From the NCBI GenBank assembly GCA_030634165.1, contig DAOWBH010000001.1, positions 7,361 to 71,360 on the forward strand: 64,000 nucleotides of DNA, written 5' to 3'. Below are positions 1 through 56,770 of this stretch, in pieces. This stretch comes from Spirochaetota bacterium. Its GTDB lineage: Bacteria > Spirochaetota > JAGLSM01. Both the position numbers and the translations under genes were made by a program. The notes beneath the pieces are model-generated. The model was not told the DNA's origin and did not search any database. It was given only the letters and a program-made list of their open reading frames with translations. Position 1 is the first letter of the stretch. Each line of letters opens with the position of its first letter.

Positions 1-704
1 ATACCAAAATAACTTACAACCTTTCCCATGACAGGCCATATAAGCTTAATTCTGCGGTTTCTCGGGATCCTTCCAAAATACCTGCGACTTTGTCTATTGT
101 AAGATTTTCTCCATCGTTTTCTTTTTAAACTTCTTCTTACAGGTCTTTTTCCAAATTTGCGTATAGGCAGCTTTATTCTCTGTCCGGGGTAAATCCTTGA
201 TCTGTTGAGTCTTTTTAAACTTATGAGACTGACCCTGTACCTTCTTGAGATCTTCCACAGAGAGTCCCCCTTTCGGACTCTGTACCAGCGCCACCTTATT
301 GATTTGGCGGATACTGATTTATAATGACCGGAAACATTGACCAATTGCCCAGGATAAATACGGACTGAAGACATACTGTTAATTTTTATAAAACGTCTTT
401 TTGAAATCGAAAATTTCCGGCATATAGACCAAACAGTATCTCCATGTCTAACCCTGTAATACCTTTTTTTTGCCGTTCTGACTCTTCTTGAAACCCTGCC
501 CGGTATTTTAAGAGACATTCCTTTAAATATTCTGCTGTTTTTTAAATTATTCAGGCGTTTTAATGAAGATACTGATATCTTAAACCGCCTACTGATTCTC
601 CAAACCGTATCTCCCTTTGAAACCCTGTAAATTCTCAATGAATAAACAGGAAAAGATAAATACAGCAAAAAAAACAGTAAAAAAAACATTAACGACTGTT
701 TCAT
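1..704 (-). CDS. LysM-repeat peptidoglycan hydrolase with the beginning of an M23 peptidase domain (NlpD/LytM-like). Partial: the C-terminus lies beyond the window start.
   Basis: Minus-strand ATG at 704 is followed by a hydrophobic signal-like N-terminus (MKQSLMFFLLFFLLYLSF). Three LysM-like motifs follow: YRVSKGDTVWRIS, YYRVRHGDTVWSI, YRVRKGDSLWKIS. Near position 1 the frame reads PVMGKVVSYFG, which is the typical start of an M23 domain. The frame stays open to the window edge. It is absent from the ORF track because no stop codon lies inside the window. Confidence 0.6.
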   Translation of the reverse strand, partial: MKQSLMFFLLFFLLYLSFPVYSLRIYRVSKGDTVWRISRRFKISVSSLKRLNNLKNSRIFKGMSLKIPGRVSRRVRTAKKRYYRVRHGDTVWSICRKFSISKRRFIKINSMSSVRIYPGQLVNVSGHYKSVSAKSIRWRWYRVRKGDSLWKISRRYRVSLISLKRLNRSRIYPGQRIKLPIRKFGKRPVRRSLKRKRWRKSYNRQSRRYFGRIPRNRRIKLIWPVMGKVVSYFG

Positions 705-796
705 CCGTGAATTTTTTTTTGATTCCATTCCGATTCTAGTATCGATAAAAATCAAACAAATTATAAATTTTTAAGGGATTTATTTAATGGATTGAA

Positions 797-4710: not shown

Positions 4711-6729
4711 TTATATATCTGTACCTTTTTCCCTTATAAAAAATAAACGAACATCTCCCGGACTCAGTTTATCCAGATGTATTTTCCCTTCAGCGTCCAG
4801 CTCTACGTGATTTTCAGCACCTGTCTTACAATCAATTTCATCAACAACAGCCTCATCAAATCCATATTCCTTAAACGGGAAAATTTCAAGATCATTTATG
4901 GACTTTTTTTTCTTTGTAATTTCAGGATAACAGACACACATCAACCTCATTTTAAAACCGTCTTCACGGTCAATAAACCAGACCGCATAATCTTCTTGAT
5001 ACTCTGCTTCCTTAATATATGAATTACTCAAAGCAGTCTTAAATTTATCGTATACATCCTCAATAGAATTGTAATATGTAAAAAATTCTTTATTGTTCTC
5101 CCATTTTAAAGAAACAGGTTTGTTATTGGCTTCATATAAACCTGATGTAAGATCCTGATTGCCGATAACCTCATATTTCGGTCTTCGGCCTTTTCCACAA
5201 TTGGTAAAACGGCTCAAAAAATACCTGACAAACATCCCTTTCCAGCCGAATCTCGCAGGATTCGAATTAATTTCAGGATGACCGGTATCATGACTGTCTA
5301 CCGCAAACTGAATCGAAATCCTTTTTGAAAAGCTGCTGTTGTAATCTGATAACTGTCTGTTTATATCTATTGAAGATTTAATAAAATTCACATCAATATC
5401 ACGAACCATGTCTCCGCCAAGTATAAGATCAAAGCCGACAGAACCATAGTCCTTAAAGTCATAACCCATCCGTTCAGCAAGTGCTCCGGTATACGGCATC
5501 GCCTTTCTTGCCTGCGATATTACATTTTTAAGCAGCACGGGAGTACATCTGTCTGATACAGGAATATCACTTGTTCCTTCAAGCACAGAATCAAAAACAT
5601 GGTCAACATAATCAATACGGACATAGTCAAATCCATATTTTTTCTGCATTTGCGGAAATATCGATGAAAAGAAATCAATCCCTTTCTGCCATGGGACAGG
5701 ATGGCTCCTGTGCGTCGGCATAGTATTTACGTTCAGCTTAGTTGAAAACTTAACAGGTGTAAGCATCCCGAAGGCATGGCCGCTTTGATCCTCGCCATTT
5801 CTGTCAAGATACTCAAACTCCGGATAATTATACTCATCATTGTAAATACTGAATTCAGGTAAACCCACACCTCCCCAGGTATGGCTGGGAATTGTCCAGA
5901 TTCCTTTTTTAACAAGCTCACTGATAATTGCCGAGTGAACCTCTGTGCTTTTCTGTGAATCATCATTCTCAAGATTTTCAATTGAGGCTTTGCCTAAATG
6001 ATCCTGTACTATCTTTTTGACCTTATTGGTAATTATCTTTTGATTAGCTTCCAAAAGCATCGTATCCTGATCAAGCTCATTGGCCAAGCCCTTTCTATTC
6101 CGCGCAAGTTCAATCCATCTGAAATATTCAGGATGAGTCAGAACAACCCTTGAGAACTGAGAGGTATGCGGCTCAAGATCAAAACCCACCGTCATACCTA
6201 AGGCGTGAATTGCATCGATAAAAATTCTAAGCTGATTTTCAGCTTTTAAGCCCATATCCTTATAATTTTTATCAATGACTTCAGAAGCTATAGCGGATAA
6301 TGAATCAACAGCATAAACATTCCCAAACACACAGTTAAAAAAAGGAGCAAGATGAATTGAATTAACCCTGAGAAGGACAAGAAGCTTTAACGCATCCATA
6401 AAGGTTCCGGGTTTGGCAGTTTCAAGTCCGACTGCTCTTACGTTTAAAAAACAAAAGTCGCTGTCACACATCCAGGAAGAATCCCTGTAATCAGACACAG
6501 GTGAAAGTAGTGCTTTTCCTTTTATATCCTTTTTTAATAGAAGAGTATAAAATAAAGCAAACAAATAATCGGGTAATTTTAAAGCTTCCTCGGGAAGAAG
6601 AGGGATATATCCGTTTTTAAGATACAGTTCTAACCATTCTTTGGCTTTTTTTTCAGTGTTTTTTTGAGAAGCTTTCCTGTTACTTGAAATACTTAAATAC
6701 TTGTCCCAATATTCAGGTAACTTCGACAT
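4711..6729 (-). CDS. alpha-amylase-family (GH13-like) glycoside hydrolase, divergent
   Basis: GH13-like conserved regions: NSIHLAPFF, IHALGMTVGFDLEPHTSQ (region I-like), GFDYVRIDYVDH (region II-like, with the nucleophile Asp). Substrate specificity is unclear. Confidence 0.45.
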   Translation of the reverse strand: MSKLPEYWDKYLSISSNRKASQKNTEKKAKEWLELYLKNGYIPLLPEEALKLPDYLFALFYTLLLKKDIKGKALLSPVSDYRDSSWMCDSDFCFLNVRAVGLETAKPGTFMDALKLLVLLRVNSIHLAPFFNCVFGNVYAVDSLSAIASEVIDKNYKDMGLKAENQLRIFIDAIHALGMTVGFDLEPHTSQFSRVVLTHPEYFRWIELARNRKGLANELDQDTMLLEANQKIITNKVKKIVQDHLGKASIENLENDDSQKSTEVHSAIISELVKKGIWTIPSHTWGGVGLPEFSIYNDEYNYPEFEYLDRNGEDQSGHAFGMLTPVKFSTKLNVNTMPTHRSHPVPWQKGIDFFSSIFPQMQKKYGFDYVRIDYVDHVFDSVLEGTSDIPVSDRCTPVLLKNVISQARKAMPYTGALAERMGYDFKDYGSVGFDLILGGDMVRDIDVNFIKSSIDINRQLSDYNSSFSKRISIQFAVDSHDTGHPEINSNPARFGWKGMFVRYFLSRFTNCGKGRRPKYEVIGNQDLTSGLYEANNKPVSLKWENNKEFFTYYNSIEDVYDKFKTALSNSYIKEAEYQEDYAVWFIDREDGFKMRLMCVCYPEITKKKKSINDLEIFPFKEYGFDEAVVDEIDCKTGAENHVELDAEGKIHLDKLSPGDVRLFFIREKGTDI

Positions 6730-6789
6730 TTTCCCCCACCGATCCTGTCCCTAGTATTACCAAAACAAGACTGTCTGTCAATTACTATT

Positions 6790-6833
6790 TTGATGTATTT
6801 ATCCCGATCTATCGATCGGGATAAATACATCAA
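6790..6833. repeat. 44-bp perfect palindrome with 20-bp arms and a 4-nt loop (TTGATGTATTTATCCCGATC-TATC-GATCGGGATAAATACATCAA)
   Basis: Read directly from the sequence. It shares a TCCCGATC/GATCGGGA core with a second palindrome at 7167-7210. Confidence 0.9.
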
Positions 6834-6996
6834 TTGGAAAATATGAATCAACATCAGAATTAGTTGCACATCCTAACAAACAAAATTTTAGATGGATAAG
6901 TATCAGTTGCACAACCTCATTTTTTTTAAAAAGTGTAAGATTATTCTGTCTTATCAAAATGATTTTACATAACCGGAGTCAAACAAAGCGGAATCA

Positions 6997-7142
6997 GTTG
7001 CAGAACTTGATTTTTTTGAAAAATGCACTGCTTGAGTAACTAAATATTCAACTAGAAATTAAATTTTCACCTGCACACAACTTTCTTTATCTAATTAATT
7101 ATATACGAGTTTGCATTTTCAAAAAAATCAAGTTCTGCAACA
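6997..7142. mobile_element. MITE-like 146-bp element, copy 1, with perfect 26-bp terminal inverted repeats GTTGCAGAACTTGATTTTTTTGAAAA / TTTTCAAAAAAATCAAGTTCTGCAAC
   Basis: The TIRs are exact reverse complements. The element has no coding capacity. Two more full copies lie at 30735-30880 and 40934-41100. Degenerate left-end fragments (GTTGCACA...) sit at 6863 and 6906. Confidence 0.8.
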
Positions 7143-7166
7143 TCCTCATAAGCCATATTTTACCAT

Positions 7167-7210
7167 TTAAGCATTTTGTCCCGATCATCAGATCGGGACA
7201 AAATGCTTAA
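7167..7210. repeat. 44-bp perfect palindrome (TTAAGCATTTTGTCCCGATC-ATCA-GATCGGGACAAAATGCTTAA)
   Basis: 20-bp arms and a 4-nt loop, read from the sequence. It pairs with the palindrome at 6790-6833 to bracket the MITE cluster. Confidence 0.9.
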
Positions 7211-7303
7211 ATAAAAAATCATTGATATATTCATGAGTTTGTTATAAAATCTAATTAAAGTATCTGAATAAGCCGATTCAAATACTTTAAGGAGGACTGC
7301 TTA

Positions 7304-8020
7304 ATGGATTTTTTGAAAAACACACTTGAAGAAATTGTAATTAAAAAAGTTGAACAGGGTTTTAAAGACAATCCTGATATATGTCAAAGTCTGCAATGTA
7401 AAAAAGATGTAGCTGTATTAATATTAAACAAAATAAAACCCAGATATATAATTTCAGCAAGAGGGATGCTTCACCAGGCTGCAAATACTGCAGAGCAAAA
7501 AAGAATAAGCAAAGAAATTGACTCAGTTCTTCCCTCAGCTTTGAAACAAGTAAATGAACATAGAAGACCTAACTTCGACCATAGTAAAACATCCGGTAAT
7601 CTTATGGATTCTTTTGGCAAAAAAGAAAGATTTACAATGACTGATAGTTTTTTTATCAATTTCCCATTCTTCCTGGGAGAAGTACGCGACAGGACAACGG
7701 ATGAAATAATTTCAGATGTTAAAGTCTCAATGAGTGCAAATGAGAAAATACTTGATGGATATGACGGAAACTGGCCCAATCCTTATGAAACATCCGACAA
7801 ATCCGGGGGTAAATTTGCGTTCTGGCCCAAGTCAATACCCACAGAAAATGATCAGGCCCACCCGGAAAACTTCGATTTTAAACTGATATTTGAGAGTAAA
7901 AAATACAAAACCAAGGAAATTTCCTTTTCAATAGAACTTGAACCCGAAAAATTTACGGTAAATTTTGTGAGGACCGATTATTCAAAGGACATGGATATTG
8001 TAGCACTGGATCCGAAGTAA
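7304..8020 (+). CDS. ComFB-domain protein with a roughly 150-aa C-terminal extension
   Basis: The N-terminal 85 aa (NTLEEIVIKKVEQ...NPDICQSLQCKKDVAVLILNKIKPRYI) match the late-competence ComFB fold signature, including the two Cys. The C-terminal 150 aa has no family I recognise. Confidence 0.6.
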   Translation: MDFLKNTLEEIVIKKVEQGFKDNPDICQSLQCKKDVAVLILNKIKPRYIISARGMLHQAANTAEQKRISKEIDSVLPSALKQVNEHRRPNFDHSKTSGNLMDSFGKKERFTMTDSFFINFPFFLGEVRDRTTDEIISDVKVSMSANEKILDGYDGNWPNPYETSDKSGGKFAFWPKSIPTENDQAHPENFDFKLIFESKKYKTKEISFSIELEPEKFTVNFVRTDYSKDMDIVALDPK

Positions 8021-8029
8021 GGGGGGGTA

Positions 8030-8067
8030 GTTCATTTTTTTCTTTTTTGTAAAAGAAAAAAATGAAC
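8030..8067. terminator. Putative bidirectional terminator hairpin with a 17-bp perfect stem, between convergent comFB-like and aroK
   Basis: GTTCATTTTTTTCTTTT-ttgt-AAAAGAAAAAAATGAAC. It is AT-rich but long and is flanked by T/A runs on both strands. A G7 run immediately follows the comFB stop codon. Confidence 0.4.
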
Positions 8068-29370: not shown

Positions 29371-30459
29371 CTAAGGTTTCCATGATACTACGTGAATGTT
29401 TTTTTGGAAAATTTTAAAATTAAACAAACGCCCGTCATTCGATAAATAAAAATTACGGTAAGCGCCGTTACCGGTATCAGCCTTAATAACTACCTTTTTG
29501 GTATCTCCTGAAACAGGTGAATAAATGTCAAAGTAGACATATACATACGGTTTTTTAACTCTTACATTTTTTGTAAAATAAATCATTCCGAATTCAGTAA
29601 TGCCCTTAATACCATACCATATATCTGTAGGAAGACTTACCGGCGTAAGCTTTGTTTTATGGATTAAATCCATCTTGTAAAGAACCTTTTTAAGCTTAAC
29701 CTTATCTTCCACGTATAAAATCTCAAACAATAAAACCTTATTACTATATGATGGAAAAACTGACATAATTTTCATCAGTTTTAACTTGCCTTTTAATTTC
29801 AAGACAAGACTCTTTTGAGGGATCGAATATGATTTAACCTTTTTATTTTTAATATTTACAATATCAATCCATTCAATCTGGACATCACTGTCAAAACGTG
29901 TCTCCCAAACCATGACTAATTGATCCTTAGACAACAAGAACATATTTCTGATTCTGGAAACCCCTTGTCTCAGATTTTTTAAACCAAAGGATTTTTTCAT
30001 TGAAACCCTGCGGGTAACTATTCTGTTCTTTTTTGTTTTATCAATCTGCCAGACTGTATAGACTGTATCATTTTTTATCCGAATCATTTCAAGGGAATAA
30101 ACACGGCCTGCTGAATCGTTATCCACAAATAAAAACTGACTTTTACCCTGAGGAATATCATTTTTATCCCGGTTAAGAACAAAATCCAGCTTTAATATAC
30201 CTGCGTAATCGAATTGAAGAATCTTAAAATTCGCATTATCCAGAAATGTTACAGTTCCATATTTACATGATATATAGCTTGTCAATAACTGTTGATCGTA
30301 AAGAAAGGCGGAATTTTTTGATTTATCGAGAATGCCCAGATGAGCTTTGCCGGATCCGAATGAAACTTTAAAATGAAACCTTTGTGTAAGTACATTTTCA
30401 CCCACACCGCAGGCATTTAACAATATCAGAATTAGAAGAATATAATACTTTAAAGGCAA
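29371..30459 (-). CDS. lipoprotein, hypothetical
   Basis: Signal peptide plus lipobox LLNACG. No recognisable domain. Confidence 0.35.
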   Translation of the reverse strand: MPLKYYILLILILLNACGVGENVLTQRFHFKVSFGSGKAHLGILDKSKNSAFLYDQQLLTSYISCKYGTVTFLDNANFKILQFDYAGILKLDFVLNRDKNDIPQGKSQFLFVDNDSAGRVYSLEMIRIKNDTVYTVWQIDKTKKNRIVTRRVSMKKSFGLKNLRQGVSRIRNMFLLSKDQLVMVWETRFDSDVQIEWIDIVNIKNKKVKSYSIPQKSLVLKLKGKLKLMKIMSVFPSYSNKVLLFEILYVEDKVKLKKVLYKMDLIHKTKLTPVSLPTDIWYGIKGITEFGMIYFTKNVRVKKPYVYVYFDIYSPVSGDTKKVVIKADTGNGAYRNFYLSNDGRLFNFKIFQKNIHVVSWKP

Positions 30460-30605
30460 GGAAATTTCCTGAATATAGATTTTATAGATACATAAAATTT
30501 ACAACATATCCAAGAATAGTCTATATTTTGATTCATGTATGTCAAGCTCTTTATCCAATATATGCAACAATCGCATATGTCAAAAAAAGTACTTTCATAC
30601 ACCAC

Positions 30606-30680
30606 CTAACCCTATCCCTTCCCTTGTTCGCTTCGCAGGGAAGGGGAACGTTGAAAATTAATATCGAGCATTTTTTTGGA
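30606..30680. repeat. Dispersed hairpin repeat, copy A (CCTAACCCTATCCCTTCCCT-loop-AGGGAAGGG...TTGAAAATTAATATCGAGCATTT)
   Basis: Near-identical to copy B at 56648-56715 except for the hairpin loop (12 nt here, 4 nt in copy B), which is the part expected to vary if the stem is selected. Intergenic. Confidence 0.7.
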
Positions 30681-30734: not shown

Positions 30735-30880
30735 TGTTGCACAACCTGATTTTTTTGAAAAATGACTGTTTGAGTAAATAAACCATCTATTAACAAATAA
30801 ATTTTATGCCCAACAAATGACTTCTTTAGATAATAAATTCAATACGAGTTTCATTTTCAAAAAAATCAGGTTGTGCAACA
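30735..30880. mobile_element. MITE-like element, copy 2 (146 bp; TIRs GTTGCACAACCTGATTTTTTTGAAAA / TTTTCAAAAAAATCAGGTTGTGCAAC)
   Basis: Perfect 26-bp TIRs. Its internal sequence is conserved with copy 1 (AATACGAGTTTCATTTTC). It ends 4 bp before the stop codon of the 30885-31985 gene. Confidence 0.8.
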
Positions 30881-30884
30881 TTAT

Positions 30885-31985
30885 CTAGAATCTAAGACCG
30901 GAACCAATACTGGTAAACAGCGTTCTGAAACCACTTGTATAATCAAGACCAATACTTATATCTGTCAGTAAAAATAAAATTGAATACCTCATACCAAGAC
31001 TTGTGGAGTATTTTGTGTTTGCTGAAGAATCAATAGTCATCCTCGATTCAAAACCTATCCCTGTTCTCCAATAAAACTGCCAGTTTCTATTGTAGTAATC
31101 ATTAACCAGAAAATGTAGTTCAAAATATGCAGAAATCTCTACCATCCTGTTTCTTTTTTCGTAAAACTTCCCCAGAAAACCAAAGGATAAAATAGTATTC
31201 TCCACATCAAATATAAAATCAGCTCCAAGAGCCGTTATTCCTGTATCCGGTACAGTGCTTAATAAACCCCATTGTGAAGCAAAAAGCTCCTTGGGAAGCG
31301 CCCAGTCATACCTGAATAGTACATTAAATGTAACCGATCTTGAGCGGGCATCACCCTTGTACTTGTTTCTCGCGTCATACTTCAGCTTTGAGTCCCTGTC
31401 TATTACGAGTTTTTTGTCTTTTTTCTTTTTACGCTGTTTTACTGCCTTATTTTTAATGGTCCTTTTTTTTACCGCATATACCGAAAATTTATATTTGGTT
31501 TTAAACAGATTTCTGACCTTACTTGTAAAATCAGAAAGTATTATATTTTTTTGAGCCAAAAAGTCAGAAATTGAAACCGTTGCAATAACCATTCCTGTTT
31601 TTATACTGAGAAGCCTTCCCTTAACACGGATAATACTTGAGTTTTTGAAATACTTTACTCTTCCGAAAAATATTAAATCTGCAGCAAGCCGCCTTCCAAA
31701 TCTCTGGAGAACAAGATCATTATCAAACTGTTGTTTGCTTGCTTTGTATTTTTTACGAAGTTCCAGGATATCTTCTTTTTCAACCAGATCAACATTCGGT
31801 AAATTTCTCAGAGAATTCTTTATAGAAATACTTATCTGATGAGTATAGTTTTTTATTACAGGATTTTTACCCTTATATTCCAAATCCATAATAGATACAA
31901 CCATAAACTCTTGCGCTTTTAAATTACCAAATATTAAAAGAACCAGAATAAGAATATACCCTGTTAAGAGTGAATACCTTTTCAT
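30885..31985 (-). CDS. outer-membrane beta-barrel protein, hypothetical, with a Lys-rich internal linker
   Basis: Signal peptide. C-terminal amphipathic strands ending ...GSGLRF. No catalytic motif. Confidence 0.4.
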   Translation of the reverse strand: MKRYSLLTGYILILVLLIFGNLKAQEFMVVSIMDLEYKGKNPVIKNYTHQISISIKNSLRNLPNVDLVEKEDILELRKKYKASKQQFDNDLVLQRFGRRLAADLIFFGRVKYFKNSSIIRVKGRLLSIKTGMVIATVSISDFLAQKNIILSDFTSKVRNLFKTKYKFSVYAVKKRTIKNKAVKQRKKKKDKKLVIDRDSKLKYDARNKYKGDARSRSVTFNVLFRYDWALPKELFASQWGLLSTVPDTGITALGADFIFDVENTILSFGFLGKFYEKRNRMVEISAYFELHFLVNDYYNRNWQFYWRTGIGFESRMTIDSSANTKYSTSLGMRYSILFLLTDISIGLDYTSGFRTLFTSIGSGLRF

Positions 31986-33119: not shown

Positions 33120-33330
33120 TCCAATCCAGGCTGTCCCTTAACTGTGAAGACACCACATAATCTCAATAATTTGAGAAAATTGAGCTAATTTCAGCATATT
33201 TATAATCAAAATACTGGAAAAAACCTGCAATTTCACCTGAAATAAGTAGTTCTGAAGTATCCGATGAATTAAGGGACAGCCTGAATCCGTAAGATCCACG
33301 TTCTATCCCATTTAATTGATAGAACGCAGA
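33120..33330. ncRNA. Candidate structured RNA or leader: long-range inverted repeat (TCCAGGCTGTCCCTTAA ... TTAAGGGACAGCCTGAA) closing a roughly 160-nt domain, followed by an 8-bp hairpin
   Basis: The 15-bp perfect arms at 33124-33139 and 33268-33285 extend with a single mismatch. A second hairpin, GTTCTATC...GATAGAAC, lies at 33300-33328. Both sit inside a 580-bp non-coding region upstream of the giant kinase gene. Strand undetermined. Confidence 0.3.
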
Positions 33331-40215: not shown

Positions 40216-40874
40216 TATTCTTTATTCTTCCAAGTGAATCAGAGTACAATCCTGTAATAAAAAAGTTAACCCCAAAAATTCTGCCGGATTATAACTTTAT
40301 TTCTGTCATAGCAAATGACTCCTGCAATTTCTATTTTGTAAAATCAGGAATCGGAAAAAAGAAAGCAATATCAACCGTAAGAAAAATCTGCTCGGACTTC
40401 AAACCCCATCTTATAATATCTTCTGGATGCTGCGGAGGTTTAAAATCCTATATAAAACCATACAGTATTTTTTCACCGGTTGAAGCGCTGTCTGAAAATA
40501 ATAAGAGCTGCAGGCTTCTAAGCCTTAGAAGCAAAATATACAAATCCTCTATTTTTGAAGGAAAATCCTTTTCTGTTAAAAAACCCGCGGACAGGGGAAA
40601 AAAATTACTGATTGCAAAGTATCATCCTGAAGCTTTCTTTGTAGATATGGAAACATATTGGGTAGCAAAGACATCCAAAGATCTTGGCATCAGATGCTCT
40701 TCTTTAAGAATCTCTGTTGATAGTCTAAAAAATAATATTCCGACTTTTAGTAAAACACATATGTCTATAAGCAAAGTTAAAAACTTTTTTTTAAAACTTA
40801 TTTATAAACACAAAGCATCAAAGGCAATGAGAAAACTGTCAGGAATTATTGAAGAATTGCTTGTTCAATTTTGA
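40216..40874 (+). pseudogene. PNP/UDP-phosphorylase-family nucleosidase (MTA/SAH nucleosidase or futalosine hydrolase-like) broken by a -1 frameshift in an A7 run. There is no ATG start.
   Basis: The frame from about 40216 to 40644 encodes ...ISVIANDSCNF...LIISSGCCGGL..., matching the nucleosidase Gly-rich substrate loop. The frame from 40590 to 40874 encodes ...PEAFFVDMETYWVAKT...SLRISVD, matching the catalytic ME and RxSD region. The two frames overlap across AAAAAAA at 40608-40614. Adding one A would fuse them. A GGAG lies at 40205-40208, but only a CTG at 40216 is available as an in-frame start. Confidence 0.55.
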
Positions 40875-40933: not shown

Positions 40934-41100
40934 AGTTGCAGAAACTCATTTTTTTGAAAATGCACTGTGTGAGTAGCAAATGACTCTATAAGCAAATAAA
41001 TTTACATCAACAGACATGCTTCTTTGGGTAATTAATTAAATACGTTTGCGAAGCAACTCCGAAGGAGAATTTCATTTTTAAAAAAATAGGGTTATGCAAC
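40934..41100. mobile_element. MITE-like element, copy 3 (167 bp; degenerate right TIR; about 21-bp internal insertion)
   Basis: Left TIR GTTGCAGAAACTCATTTTTTTGAAAA. Right TIR TTTTTAAAAAAATAGGGTTATGCAAC. It ends 6 bp before the hisF stop codon. Confidence 0.7.
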
Positions 41101-41106
41101 GCACCC

Positions 41107-41865
41107 CTAATCCAGTCTAACCGGAATGTCATTTTCCTTCAGATGATGCTTGACCTGATCAATACTGAGTTCACGAAAGTGAAACAATGAAGCAGCAAGA
41201 ACCGCATCCGCATGTCCATCCTGTATAACTTCAGAAAAATGAGAAAGATCTCCAGCTCCGCCTGAAGCAATTACCGGGATTTTCACTGCATCTGCTACAG
41301 CCCTGGTTAAGGCCACATCGTATCCGTTTTTAGTTCCGTCACAATCCATACTGGTTAATAGTATTTCTCCGGCACCTCTTTTTTCTACCTCAACAGCCCA
41401 CGAAACAACATCAATACCTGTCGGAGTTCTTCCTCCGTGTATATAGACTTCCCAATCTTCTGTATTTTTTTTGGCATCAATAGCAACAACAACAAATTGT
41501 GAACCAAATTGTTCAGCTCCATCGTTTATGAGCTGTGGATTTTTTACAGCCGCTGTATTTATTGATGTTTTATCCGCCCCGGCAAGAAGCATCATTCTCA
41601 TATCGTCTACGGTTCTTATTCCGCCGCCTACCGTAAAAGGAATATAAACCGATTCAGCTACCCTTTTCACAACATCTATCATTGTACCGCGGTTATCACT
41701 TGATGCTGTAATATCCAGGAATACCAGTTCATCCGCTTTCTCTTTATCATATTGAATGGCATTTTCGACCGGATCCCCAGCATCAACAATATTTACAAAG
41801 TTAACACCCTTAACCACACGGCCCTTGTCTACATCAAGACAAGGAATAATCCTCTTAGCAAGCAT
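41107..41865 (-). CDS. hisF: imidazole glycerol phosphate synthase cyclase subunit
   Basis: N-terminus [19 protein letters not shown] and a full-length (beta/alpha)8 pattern. Confidence 0.9.
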
Positions 41866-54381: not shown

Positions 54382-55260
54382 TTATAAAATACCAAAAATT
54401 TTCATTTCTTTTTCCAGAAGCTTCTTTTTGGAATCAGACATTGCAGTAAGGGGCATCCTGATTTCAGATGATATTTTCCCCATTAAATTAAGCGCCGCCT
54501 TAACCGGAATAGGATTTGTTTCCAGAAAAAGAGTATTGCTAAGAGCCAGCTGATTCAAGTGAATATCCCTGGCAGAATTTATATCGCCAGTTTCGAAGAA
54601 TTTTATCATATCACTCATAGACTTTGGAGCTATATTTGCTAAAACAGATATTACACCTGCCCCGCCTGCTGCAAGCAAAGGAAGCACAATCGCGTCATCA
54701 CCCGAAAGAAGACAAAAATCCTCGCCTCTTAAGAGACTGAGCGTTTTACTTGCCTGTTCCACAGAACCGGTCGCATCCTTTAATCCAACAATGTTTTTAA
54801 ATTCCTTCACCAGTTGTGCTGCAGTTTCAGGCAGCATATTGACAGCAGTCCTACCGGGAACATTGTATAGAATTATTGGAATATCGGTATTCTCTGCAAT
54901 AGCTTTATAATGAAGATAAAGCCCCTGTTGTGTCGGTTTATTGTAATATGGCGTAATTATCAAGGCTGCATCGGCACCCGCTTCCTGTGCGTGCTTTGTC
55001 AATTTTATCGCTGTTTCTGTAGAATTTGATCCGGTTCCCGCAATAACAGGAACCCTTTTGTTTACTTTTTTTATTACGAATTCAATAACAGACTTATGCT
55101 CTTCTTCAGTCAGGGTTGCAGACTCGCCGGTTGTTCCGCAAGGCACTATACCGGCGGTTCCGTTATTAATCTGAAATTCTATTAATTCGGATAACTTATC
55201 AAAATCTATCTTTCCGCCGCTTAATGGGGTTACAATTGCAACAAAACTTCCTTTAAACAT
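54382..55260 (-). CDS. dapA: 4-hydroxy-tetrahydrodipicolinate synthase
   Basis: GTTGESATLT motif and a Schiff-base Lys region. Length 292 aa. Confidence 0.85.
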   Translation of the reverse strand: MFKGSFVAIVTPLSGGKIDFDKLSELIEFQINNGTAGIVPCGTTGESATLTEEEHKSVIEFVIKKVNKRVPVIAGTGSNSTETAIKLTKHAQEAGADAALIITPYYNKPTQQGLYLHYKAIAENTDIPIILYNVPGRTAVNMLPETAAQLVKEFKNIVGLKDATGSVEQASKTLSLLRGEDFCLLSGDDAIVLPLLAAGGAGVISVLANIAPKSMSDMIKFFETGDINSARDIHLNQLALSNTLFLETNPIPVKAALNLMGKISSEIRMPLTAMSDSKKKLLEKEMKIFGIL

Positions 55261-56647: not shown

Positions 56648-56715
56648 CCGCTGACCTAACCCTATCCCTTCCCTCGAAGGGAAGGGTACTGTTGAAAATT
56701 AATTTCGAGCATTTC
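56648..56715. repeat. Dispersed hairpin repeat, copy B (CCTAACCCTATCCCTTCCCT-CGAA-GGGAAGGG...TTGAAAATTAATTTCGAGCATTT)
   Basis: Matches copy A at 30606-30680, with a shorter loop. Intergenic between argG and argF. Confidence 0.7.
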
Positions 56716-56770
56716 TTTATCTATAGGGGCTAAGGGGAATAGGTAAATCTACCTATATCTAAAGACTGCA

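What the first reader, a model, noticed from the sequence alone, without database searches (positions are those of the whole stretch)
30735..30880. MITE copies end 4-6 bp from minus-strand stop codons (possible domesticated terminators)
Copy 2 ends at 30880 and the stop codon of the 30885-31985 gene sits at 30885-30887. Copy 3 ends at 41100 and the hisF stop sits at 41107-41109. In both cases the minus-strand gene would transcribe straight into the element. Its 26-bp TIRs form a very long hairpin flanked by U/A runs. This looks like target preference for gene 3' ends, or reuse as intrinsic terminators. Copy 2 also lies 55 bp from a copy of the second repeat family.
Basis: partly seen in the sequence, partly recalled or inferred. 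Interest (0 to 1): 0.55.

Follow-up and report, generated by a model that had tools for sequence, protein, structure and literature searches.

The report
Small palindromic repeat beside two stop codons
A 145-bp hairpin-forming repeat, seen so far only in one uncultured spirochaete lineage, sits 5-6 bases after two stop codons, but other copies lie elsewhere, so this is an ordinary MITE-like element and at most one copy looks like a borrowed terminator.

Summary
Three full copies of a 144-166 bp element with 26-31 bp terminal inverted repeats lie at 6997-7141, 30736-30879 and 40935-41100, and a solo repeat arm lies at 6906-6932. Copy 2 ends 5 nt from the TAG of an orphan 366-aa gene. Copy 3 ends 6 nt from the hisF TAG.

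I recovered about 19 kb more of the same organism. It holds a fourth copy 71 and 172 nt from the nearest stops, and possibly a degenerate arm in a divergent spacer. Copy 1 and the solo arm also lie between divergently transcribed genes. So 2 of 4 full copies abut a stop, which is not a family-wide preference for 3' ends.

The whole-element hairpin is strong in copies 1 and 2 (about -49 and -52 kcal/mol) but lost in copy 3. The T7/A7 runs lie inside the stem, not beside it. Only at hisF does the flank plus repeat arm form a hairpin (-8.5 kcal/mol) followed by U7, like a canonical terminator.

The two arms covary at 5 of 30 stem pairs. No target duplication, parent transposase or relative outside this lineage was found. 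Verdict: a new member of a known kind, of low to moderate interest.

The parts
30736..30879 (.). Copy 2 of the MITE-like element (144 bp). Arms are 30736-30762 and 30853-30879, with 1 mismatch. Weaker complementarity continues to 30729 and 30886, into the stop codon.
30885..30887 (-). TAG stop of the orphan 366-aa gene (30885-31985), 5 nt from copy 2.
40935..41100 (.). Copy 3 (166 bp). It carries a private 23-nt insertion and a degenerate hisF-side arm. No whole-element hairpin forms.
41080..41109 (-). Terminator-like structure at the flank/arm junction. The RNA UAGGGGUGC-GUU-GCAUAACCCUA (41087-41109, including the hisF stop) is followed by U7 (41080-41086).
41107..41865 (-). hisF, last gene of the hisD-B-H-A-F run. 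Its stop TAG is at 41107-41109.
40281..40874 (+). PNP_UDP_1-like ORF convergent with hisF, probably 5'-truncated. Its stop lies 60 nt from the left end of copy 3.
6997..7141 (.). Copy 1 (145 bp, perfect 26-bp arms), in the divergent spacer between the 672-aa gene (start at 6729) and the ComFB gene (start at 7304).
6906..6932 (+). Solo repeat arm, the remnant of another copy, in the same divergent spacer.
30602..30678 (+). Second repeat family (9-bp GC hairpin CCCTTCCCT/AGGGAAGGG), 55-57 nt from copy 2.
30518..30545 (-). Promoter-like site (TTGACA-16-TAGACT) upstream of the next gene (29371-30459). It is compatible with an operon boundary at copy 2. This is a consensus match only.

Best explanation
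These are copies of a small, non-coding, palindromic interspersed repeat. It is MITE-like: 144-166 bp, with 26-31 bp terminal inverted repeats that begin GTTGCAS and contain a T7 run. So far it has been seen only in one uncultured Spirochaetota lineage.

Shown:
- Copies persist in intergenic spacers of every kind: divergent, tandem and convergent.
- Two copies happen to abut stop codons. At hisF this is largely because the convergent spacer was tiny.

Inferred:
- When the upstream gene is transcribed, the element becomes the start of its 3' UTR.
- In copy 2 the RNA can fold into a near-perfect duplex of 27-30 bp whose base reaches the stop codon. Such a duplex would more likely act as an RNase III substrate, a 3' protective structure or a roadblock than as a canonical intrinsic terminator.
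- In copy 3 the whole-element hairpin has decayed. The hisF stop plus 6 nt of flank instead pair with the first 14 nt of the arm, and the arm's T7 run supplies a U tract. This gives a plausible intrinsic terminator for the his operon.
- Any terminator role is therefore local and opportunistic, not a property or targeting rule of the family.
For: Family, boundaries and multicopy status:
- In a strain whose HisF is 98% identical (L087/L088), homology to the window stops exactly at the element terminus, 41100.
- Short-read contigs from several samples break 43-58 nt into copies 2 and 3.

No coding capacity: ORFs inside the elements are 41 aa or shorter.

Distribution across about 83 kb of this organism:
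- Copy 1 and the solo arm lie in a divergent spacer.
- Copy 2 lies 5 nt from a stop, and copy 3 lies 6 nt from a stop.
- Copy XY lies 172 nt from the ino1 stop and 71 nt from the Ank/NlpC-P60 stop, beyond a native AT-rich hairpin.
- A weak remnant lies in another divergent spacer.

The small spacer at hisF:
- The window ORF 40281-40874 is orthologous to a convergent gene that abuts hisF with 0 nt between them in a relative.

Structures:
- Copies 1 and 2 fold at -49 and -52 kcal/mol (z about -8). Copy 3 does not fold this way.
- The copy 3 junction hairpin is -8.5 kcal/mol and is followed by U7.
- Native hairpin-plus-U-tract terminators occur after other genes in the window.

Arms kept complementary:
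- 95.8% of stem cells are paired.
- 5 of 30 pairs have changed on both sides among 4 copies. Only 1 of 500 shuffles reaches this, and versions with the 3' partner shifted by 1-3 columns give 0-1 such pairs.

Precedent for each proposed effect: Correia elements (RNase III, promoters, IHF), ERIC at 3' ends, and SPRITE/BOX near or over stop codons (PMC10969869, PMC2649163, PMC3049150).
Against: - No target-site duplication flanks any of the four full copies (read directly).
- No clean empty site was found.
- No parent IS or transposase was found, either in the window or by TIR scans of genome, metagenome, viral and plasmid collections. Mobility is therefore inferred, not shown.
- Two of four full copies within 6 nt of a stop is still nominally unlikely under uniform intergenic insertion (P about 0.01-0.03, and my arithmetic). 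Some bias cannot be excluded.
- Both stops are TAG, which makes up 21% of stops in the window.
- Arm covariation could mean the hairpin is under selection, which would favour a functional reading.
- All RNA-level effects are predictions. No expression data were available.
Confidence: 0.6

Rival explanations
1. The family is a mobile or domesticated terminator. The element as such stops transcription, and copies are retained or targeted at gene 3' ends for that reason, like the proposal made for pneumococcal SPRITE.
For: - Two copies start 5-6 nt after stops and face them with the same end.
- The nominal probability is 0.007 for 2 of 3.
- The copy 3 junction is terminator-like.
- The tail after copy 2's hairpin (AGUCUCUUAU) is moderately U-rich.
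- A promoter-like site for the next gene lies downstream of copy 2.
- Arm covariation suggests the hairpin matters.
- SPRITE is a precedent.
Against: - Copy 1, the solo arm and a possible remnant lie in divergent promoter spacers. Copy XY lies 71 and 172 nt from stops, beyond a native hairpin.
- The T7 run is inside the stem, not after it.
- Copy 2 has no hairpin before its U7, and its stem encloses a loop of about 90 nt.
- In copy 3 the whole-element hairpin is lost.
- The hisF junction hairpin depends on the flank and arises with 2.4% of random flanks.
Confidence: 0.15
2. The element is an RNA processing or stability element. The 27-30 bp perfect duplex in transcripts is cut or bound by RNase III, or blocks 3' exonucleases. 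This sets the 3' end and half-life of the upstream mRNA, as shown for Correia and ERIC elements.
For: - Copies 1 and 2 form near-perfect duplexes of 26-30 bp, long enough for RNase III.
- The arms covary so that pairing is kept.
- Correia and ERIC are precedents.
- The duplex starts 5 nt after the stop. By established ribosome-footprint knowledge, a terminating ribosome would have to melt its base. An effect of REP elements within about 15 nt of a stop on translation has been reported in E. coli (Liang, Rudd and Deutscher 2015; recalled from memory, not retrieved here).
Against: - There is no transcript evidence.
- Copy 3 has lost the duplex yet is retained.
- Nothing requires a function. Complementary arms may simply reflect how subfamilies arose.
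Confidence: 0.25
3. The insertion machinery prefers sequence or structure found right after stop codons, for example terminator hairpins or a TAG-containing motif. Stop proximity would then reflect targeting rather than selection.
For: - Both stops are TAG.
- In another strain a different, GC-rich sequence begins at exactly the same position after hisF. It gives a weak group II intron hit. This hints at a hot spot.
Against: - Flanks of the copies show no significant similarity, apart from c3 with X.
- There is no shared motif next to the arms and no target duplication.
- Four of six insertion events are not near stops.
Confidence: 0.08
4. The repeats are structure-specific recombination sites (attC-like) or REP/RAYT-type hairpin repeats rather than TIR transposon derivatives.
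For: - Arm structure is conserved through compensatory changes while sequence drifts.
- There is no target duplication.
- The termini GTT...AAC loosely recall integron core sites.
- Two copies lie directly after ORFs.
Against: - The window has no cassette array and no integrase or RAYT gene.
- The core-like motifs are in the opposite order to attC (5'-GTTGCAS...STGCAAC-3' against 5'-RYYYAAC...GTTRRRY-3'; consensus from memory).
- Copies are 10-24 kb apart among housekeeping genes, and one is in a promoter spacer.
- At 145 bp the element is far longer than a REP.
Confidence: 0.03

Closest known systems
Correia repeat enclosed elements (CREE/NEMIS) of Neisseria
   Same: - Both are non-coding elements of about 105-155 bp with 26-bp terminal inverted repeats and many dispersed intergenic copies.
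- Solo arms occur as deletion remnants in both.
- In both, the transcript forms a long duplex.
- CREE are documented to act as RNase III sites, promoters and IHF sites (PMC2649163; PMC10969869).
   Different: - The sequences are unrelated and the phylum is different.
- CREE duplicate their target, whereas none is seen here.
- No IHF-like site was identified.
- No functional data exist for this element.
SPRITE and BOX repeats of Streptococcus pneumoniae
   Same: - These are interspersed repeats enriched close to CDS 3' ends.
- SPRITE was proposed to have been co-opted as a terminator.
- BOX supplies the stop codon of 36 genes.
- Repeats of different families cluster together (PMC3049150), as the MITE and the second family do here.
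   Different: - SPRITE itself has an 18-bp stem followed by a U-rich tract. Here the U run lies inside the stem, and only one copy gains a terminator-like shape, through its flank.
- No family-wide 3' enrichment is seen in the about 83 kb examined.
ERIC/IRU elements at 3' ends of Yersinia genes
   Same: These are palindromic MITE-like repeats that are co-transcribed at gene 3' ends and change mRNA stability (PMC10969869).
   Different: - The sequence and host are unrelated.
- The ERIC effect works through an RNase E site, and nothing comparable was tested here.
Canonical intrinsic (Rho-independent) terminator
   Same: The copy 3 junction has a 9-bp stem with a 3-nt loop (-8.5 kcal/mol) immediately followed by U7, as seen after other genes in this window.
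   Different: - Half of the stem and the whole U tract come from a repeat arm.
- Copies 1 and 2 lack this arrangement.

Membership tests
Bacterial MITE | Small (under about 500 bp) with no coding capacity | tested here: met
   The elements are 144-166 bp and the longest internal ORFs are 41 aa or shorter.
Bacterial MITE | Terminal inverted repeats | tested here: met
   The arms are 26-31 bp. They are perfect in copy 1, have 1 mismatch in copy 2, and are degenerate in copy 3.
Bacterial MITE | Several dispersed copies in one genome | tested here: met
   About 83 kb holds four full copies or copies that were once full, plus 1-2 solo arms. Assemblies break inside the element.
Bacterial MITE | Target-site duplication flanking each copy | tested here: not met
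   No direct repeat of 2 bp or more adjoins the arms of c1, c2, c3 or XY (flanks read). Flank comparisons are not significant.
Bacterial MITE | Evidence of mobility (filled versus empty sites) | tested here: inconclusive
   The strain of L087/L088 diverges exactly at the element terminus, but what follows is other sequence, not a clean empty site. All other strain contigs carry the copies.
Bacterial MITE | Autonomous IS with matching TIRs | tested here: not met
   The window encodes no transposase. TIR scans of genome, metagenome, viral and plasmid collections gave only single chance matches or none. The rest of this genome could not be searched.
Intrinsic terminator | Stable short-loop hairpin immediately followed by a U tract, downstream of a stop | tested here: inconclusive
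   The feature is met in silico at the copy 3/hisF junction. It is not met at copy 2 or copy 1. A random flank gives it 2.4% of the time.
Intrinsic terminator | Transcript 3' ends map to the U tract | not testable with these tools
   No RNA data were available.
Repeat family co-opted as terminators (SPRITE-like) | Family-wide enrichment immediately 3' of CDSs | tested here: not met
   Only 2 of 4 full copies (2 of 6 events) lie next to stops, and 3 events lie in divergent spacers. The sample is small.
Correia element (CREE) | Correia 26-bp repeat sequence and characteristic core, in Neisseria | tested here: not met
   The sequences are unrelated and Rfam returns no family at gathering score. 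The host is a spirochaete MAG.
Integron attC site | R''/R' core sites in attC order, a cassette array, and an IntI nearby | tested here: not met
   The core-like motifs are in the opposite order (from reading the sequence; attC consensus from memory). Copies are 10-24 kb apart among housekeeping genes. No integrase appears among the ORFs scanned.

The most novel reading that the evidence does not exclude
The hairpin itself is under selection. Five of the 30 stem pairs have changed on both sides among only four copies, while the interior has drifted by about 25%. On this reading the family would be a structure-selected 3'-UTR module that the lineage spreads and keeps as a terminator, RNA-processing site or translation-termination modulator. 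It would work through hairpins that sequester the stop codon, rather than being a passive transposon relic.
Probability: 0.12. Interest if true: 0.5.

Novelty: new member of a known kind. Interest (0 to 1): 0.25.

Why it matters
It adds an undescribed MITE-like repeat family from an uncultured Spirochaetota lineage.

It also gives one concrete candidate for how a repeat arm can supply half a stem and the U tract of an operon terminator, at hisF.

Practically, the element explains why short-read assemblies of this organism break at these loci, and why one scaffold (L089/L107) is chimeric.

Conceptually, repeats at 3' ends acting as terminators or RNA-processing sites are already known from SPRITE, BOX, ERIC and Correia elements. 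The finding would matter only if a genome-wide census and transcript mapping showed systematic use.

Tried and rejected
- TIR pattern scans of genome contigs and metagenome contigs returned 4 and 78 single matches. nhmmer with the full-element profile showed that none extends beyond the arm, so they are chance hits.
- The viral scan and a plasmid blastn found nothing.
- Rfam found nothing at gathering score. At permissive E-values it gave only plant miRNA-precursor models, far below threshold, which reflects the long hairpin and nothing more.
- The 366-aa gene has no homologues outside its own cluster, so no allele free of the MITE could be compared.
- I searched strain variants of the flanking genes for empty sites. 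Every contig either carries the copy or ends just before or inside it.
- A left-flank motif, CAAACAAAG, looked shared between copies. Only c3 against X is significant, so I did not extend the element boundary.
- I considered that copy 3's arm had mutated adaptively to build the hisF hairpin. I rejected this because the hisF flank pairs about as well with a consensus copy-2-type arm.
- The scaffold L089/L107 seemed to place hisF next to ino1. It is a chimera joined through homology between copy 3 and copy X, and it contains a run of Ns.
- I also considered attC-like and REP/RAYT readings. These are dealt with under rival explanations.

Full report
**What is there**

The window is low in GC (34-40%). 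It belongs to an uncultured 'Spirochaetes bacterium' known only from MAGs and ZHAN22-2 metagenome assemblies.

A direct-repeat search and a TIR pattern search find three full copies of one element:
- copy 1 at 6997-7141 (145 bp);
- copy 2 at 30736-30879 (144 bp);
- copy 3 at 40935-41100 (166 bp).

There is also one solo arm at 6906-6932. Five arms match with 3 mismatches or fewer, against 0 expected by chance. The copies align end to end at 78% mean column identity. Copy 3 carries a private 23-nt insertion.

The arms read GTTGCASAACYTGATTTTTTTGAAAA. They are perfect over 26 bp in copy 1 and have one mismatch in copy 2. Internal ORFs are 41 aa or shorter. Rfam has no matching family.

**Checking the observation**

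- The right arm of copy 2 ends at 30879. The TAG of the 366-aa ORF (30885-31985) is at 30885-30887, a gap of 5 nt.
- Copy 3 ends at 41100 and the hisF TAG is at 41107-41109, a gap of 6 nt.
- The second-family repeat lies 55 nt from copy 2.

So the coordinates are right to within 1 nt. Two statements need correcting.

First, the long hairpin exists in copy 2 (-51.9 kcal/mol, z = -8.3) and in copy 1 (-48.9 kcal/mol, z = -8.1). It does not exist in copy 3, whose hisF-side arm has diverged (z = -0.68).

Second, the T7/A7 runs lie within the arms and pair with each other. They do not flank the hairpin.

**A missed gene changes the odds at hisF**

An ORF is open from 40281 to 40874 on the + strand. 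It matches PNP_UDP_1 (E = 2.7e-8). It is the orthologue (BLASTP E = 7e-31) of a gene that lies convergent to hisF in a related organism whose HisF is 79% identical (L091). There the two stop codons abut with no spacer.

In the window, the hisF/PNP-like spacer is 232 nt, of which 166 nt are the element. Before insertion only about 66 nt were available, so any insertion there had to be close to a stop.

**Boundaries and polymorphism**

In a strain whose HisF is 98% identical (L087/L088), homology to the window runs through the hisF stop and ends exactly at the element terminus, window position 41100. It is followed by an unrelated GC-rich sequence.

This has two consequences:
- The element boundary coincides with the end of the arm.
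- The hisF stop codon is native, not supplied by the element.

That GC-rich sequence gives only a weak partial match to a group II intron model (E = 0.39). It is not a clean empty site.

Every other strain contig I could fetch either carries the copies or ends just before or inside them. Short-read contigs typically break 43-58 nt into copies 2 and 3, as expected for a multicopy repeat.

**More copies from the same organism**

By walking from a chimeric scaffold (L089/L107), I fetched about 19 kb of further sequence from this organism.

It holds a fourth copy, XY, in the convergent spacer between an inositol-1-phosphate synthase gene and an Ank/NlpC-P60 gene.
- Its left 106 nt lie 172 nt downstream of the ino1 stop.
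- Its right 57 nt lie 71 nt downstream of the other stop, beyond a native 13-bp AT-rich hairpin.
- The copy is split at TTAATTAA by an unidentified element.

A weak possible arm remnant lies in another divergent spacer (L110 1387-1449).

The tally is 2 of 4 full copies, or 2 of 6 insertion events, next to a stop. Three events lie in divergent promoter spacers.

Under uniform insertion into spacers, p(6 nt or less from a stop) is 0.05 and P(at least 2 of 3) is 0.007. With the larger tally, my arithmetic gives about 0.014 to 0.03. These values are nominal, post hoc and based on very few events.

Both stops are TAG, which makes up 11 of 53 stops in the window. Flanks share no significant motif apart from c3 with X. 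No copy has a target-site duplication.

**Terminator test**

This genome does use hairpin-plus-U-tract terminators. Examples lie after the genes ending at 54382, 19176, 62347 and 8020.

At hisF, the RNA reads UAGGGGUGC-GUU-GCAUAACCCUA. Its 5' half is the stop codon plus flank, and its 3' half is the first 14 nt of the arm. It forms a 9-bp stem with a 2-nt bulge (-8.5 kcal/mol) and is followed at once by the arm's U7. That is a credible intrinsic terminator for the his operon.

The evidence is limited in two ways:
- The same flank pairs about as well with a consensus arm, so no adaptive change of the arm needs to be invoked.
- 2.4% of random flanks give an equivalent hairpin.

At copy 2, nothing folds ahead of the U7 (-0.5 kcal/mol). 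The only strong structure is the whole-element duplex, which has a loop of about 90 nt and is followed by AGUCUCUUAU. This is not a canonical terminator.

A near-perfect duplex of 27-30 bp that begins 5 nt after the stop (weaker pairing reaches into the stop) resembles an RNase III substrate or a 3' protective structure. That is what was shown for Correia elements and, through RNase E, for ERIC.

A promoter-like site for the next gene (30545-30518) is compatible with an operon boundary here, but it is only a consensus match.

**Arm covariation**

I aligned copies 1, 2, 3 and the reconstructed XY and counted pairs in the 30-bp terminal stem.
- 95.8% of cells are paired.
- 5 pairs have changed on both sides.
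- Only 1 of 500 shuffles reaches that number, and 0 of 500 reach the percentage paired.
- Versions with the 3' partner shifted by 1-3 columns give 0-1 such pairs.

So the two arms are kept complementary while their sequence drifts. There are two possible reasons. The hairpin may be under selection. Alternatively, each subfamily may descend from a founder with perfect arms, or the arms may be homogenised. With four sequences these cannot be separated.

**Comparison with known systems**

By structure, this is a bacterial MITE-like element. Its closest analogue in architecture is the Correia element: 26-bp arms, about 105-155 bp, and solo arms as remnants.

Two defining MITE features were tested and not met: a target-site duplication and a matching autonomous IS. 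Mobility is not proven. I therefore call it 'MITE-like' rather than a MITE.

The idea that such repeats sit at gene 3' ends and are co-opted as terminators is already published for SPRITE. BOX elements supply stop codons for 36 pneumococcal genes. The 2024 review lists terminator formation as a conceivable MITE role.

attC-like and REP/RAYT readings were considered and rejected. There is no array, no integrase and no RAYT, and the core order is opposite to attC.

**Verdict**

The family is a new member of a known kind. Terminator reuse is plausible at one locus (hisF), and there it depends on the flank. It is not supported as a family property, and neither is targeting of 3' ends. Interest is low to moderate.

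Noticed in passing
window 30602-30678 and 56651-56722; L104 11916-11992; L106 6456-6532 and 6712-6788; L109 2422-2498 and 2678-2749: A second interspersed repeat of about 75 nt. It has a 9-bp GC hairpin (CCCTTCCCT / AGGGAAGGG) with a variable loop. One copy starts 15 nt after the ino1 stop, and it is tandemly duplicated with a unit of about 256 nt in some strains. It lies near MITE copies 2 and XY, so the two repeat families cluster.
   Followed up: partly
window 6790-6833 and 7165-7212: Two perfect palindromes of 20-22 bp share the core CCCGATC-N4-GATCGGG. They bracket copy 1 and the solo arm in the divergent spacer 6730-7303. They could be operator sites or a third small repeat family.
   Followed up: no
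window 8030-8067: A perfect 17-bp AT-rich palindrome lies between the convergent ComFB and shikimate kinase genes. It looks like a bidirectional terminator.
   Followed up: no
window 40281-40874 (+): A PNP_UDP_1-like ORF has no ATG, GTG or TTG start before 40647. It lacks about 42 N-terminal residues relative to its orthologue in L091, so it is probably a 5'-truncated pseudogene.
   Followed up: partly
L087 4760-4814 and L088 4757-4779: In a strain whose HisF is 98% identical, the sequence after the hisF stop diverges exactly where the MITE begins in the window. It continues as GC-rich GCCGAGCAAGGTCGCATACTCTAACGGGTGTGAATCCCG..., which gives a weak partial match to Rfam group-II-D1D4-4 (E = 0.39). 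Both contigs end there.
   Followed up: partly
L106 6975-7023; L111 5290-5365; L112 2932-3007: MITE copy XY is split at TTAATTAA, which is present on both sides as an apparent 8-bp duplication. The interrupting element is unidentified and has inverted ends CATGATTAWGYAGTTARCTC. All contigs end inside it.
   Followed up: partly
L089 / L107 (ENA scaffold_12798): This scaffold joins hisF to the ino1 region through homology between copy 3 and copy X, and it contains a run of Ns. It is a repeat-induced chimera, not a real rearrangement.
   Followed up: yes
window 33124-33141 and 33269-33286: An 18-bp inverted repeat pair (94% complementary, 127 nt apart) lies in the spacer upstream of the 1538-aa kinase gene. 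It was seen only at this locus in the sequences held.
   Followed up: partly
window 41047-41069 (approximate): Copy 3 has a private 23-nt insertion containing a CTCC-GAA-GGAG mini-hairpin. Logan contigs break inside it.
   Followed up: no
L109 2750-3007: One strain has a different, GC-richer spacer and a shorter Ank/NlpC-P60 gene (401 aa against 430 aa) where the other strains carry MITE copy XY. The region is structurally polymorphic.
   Followed up: partly
window 3-770 (-): An ORF with repeated LysM-like motifs (YRVxKGDTxWxISRR) runs off the left end of the window, so the source contig continues to the left. The LysM assignment comes from reading the translation and was not tested against Pfam.
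   Followed up: no
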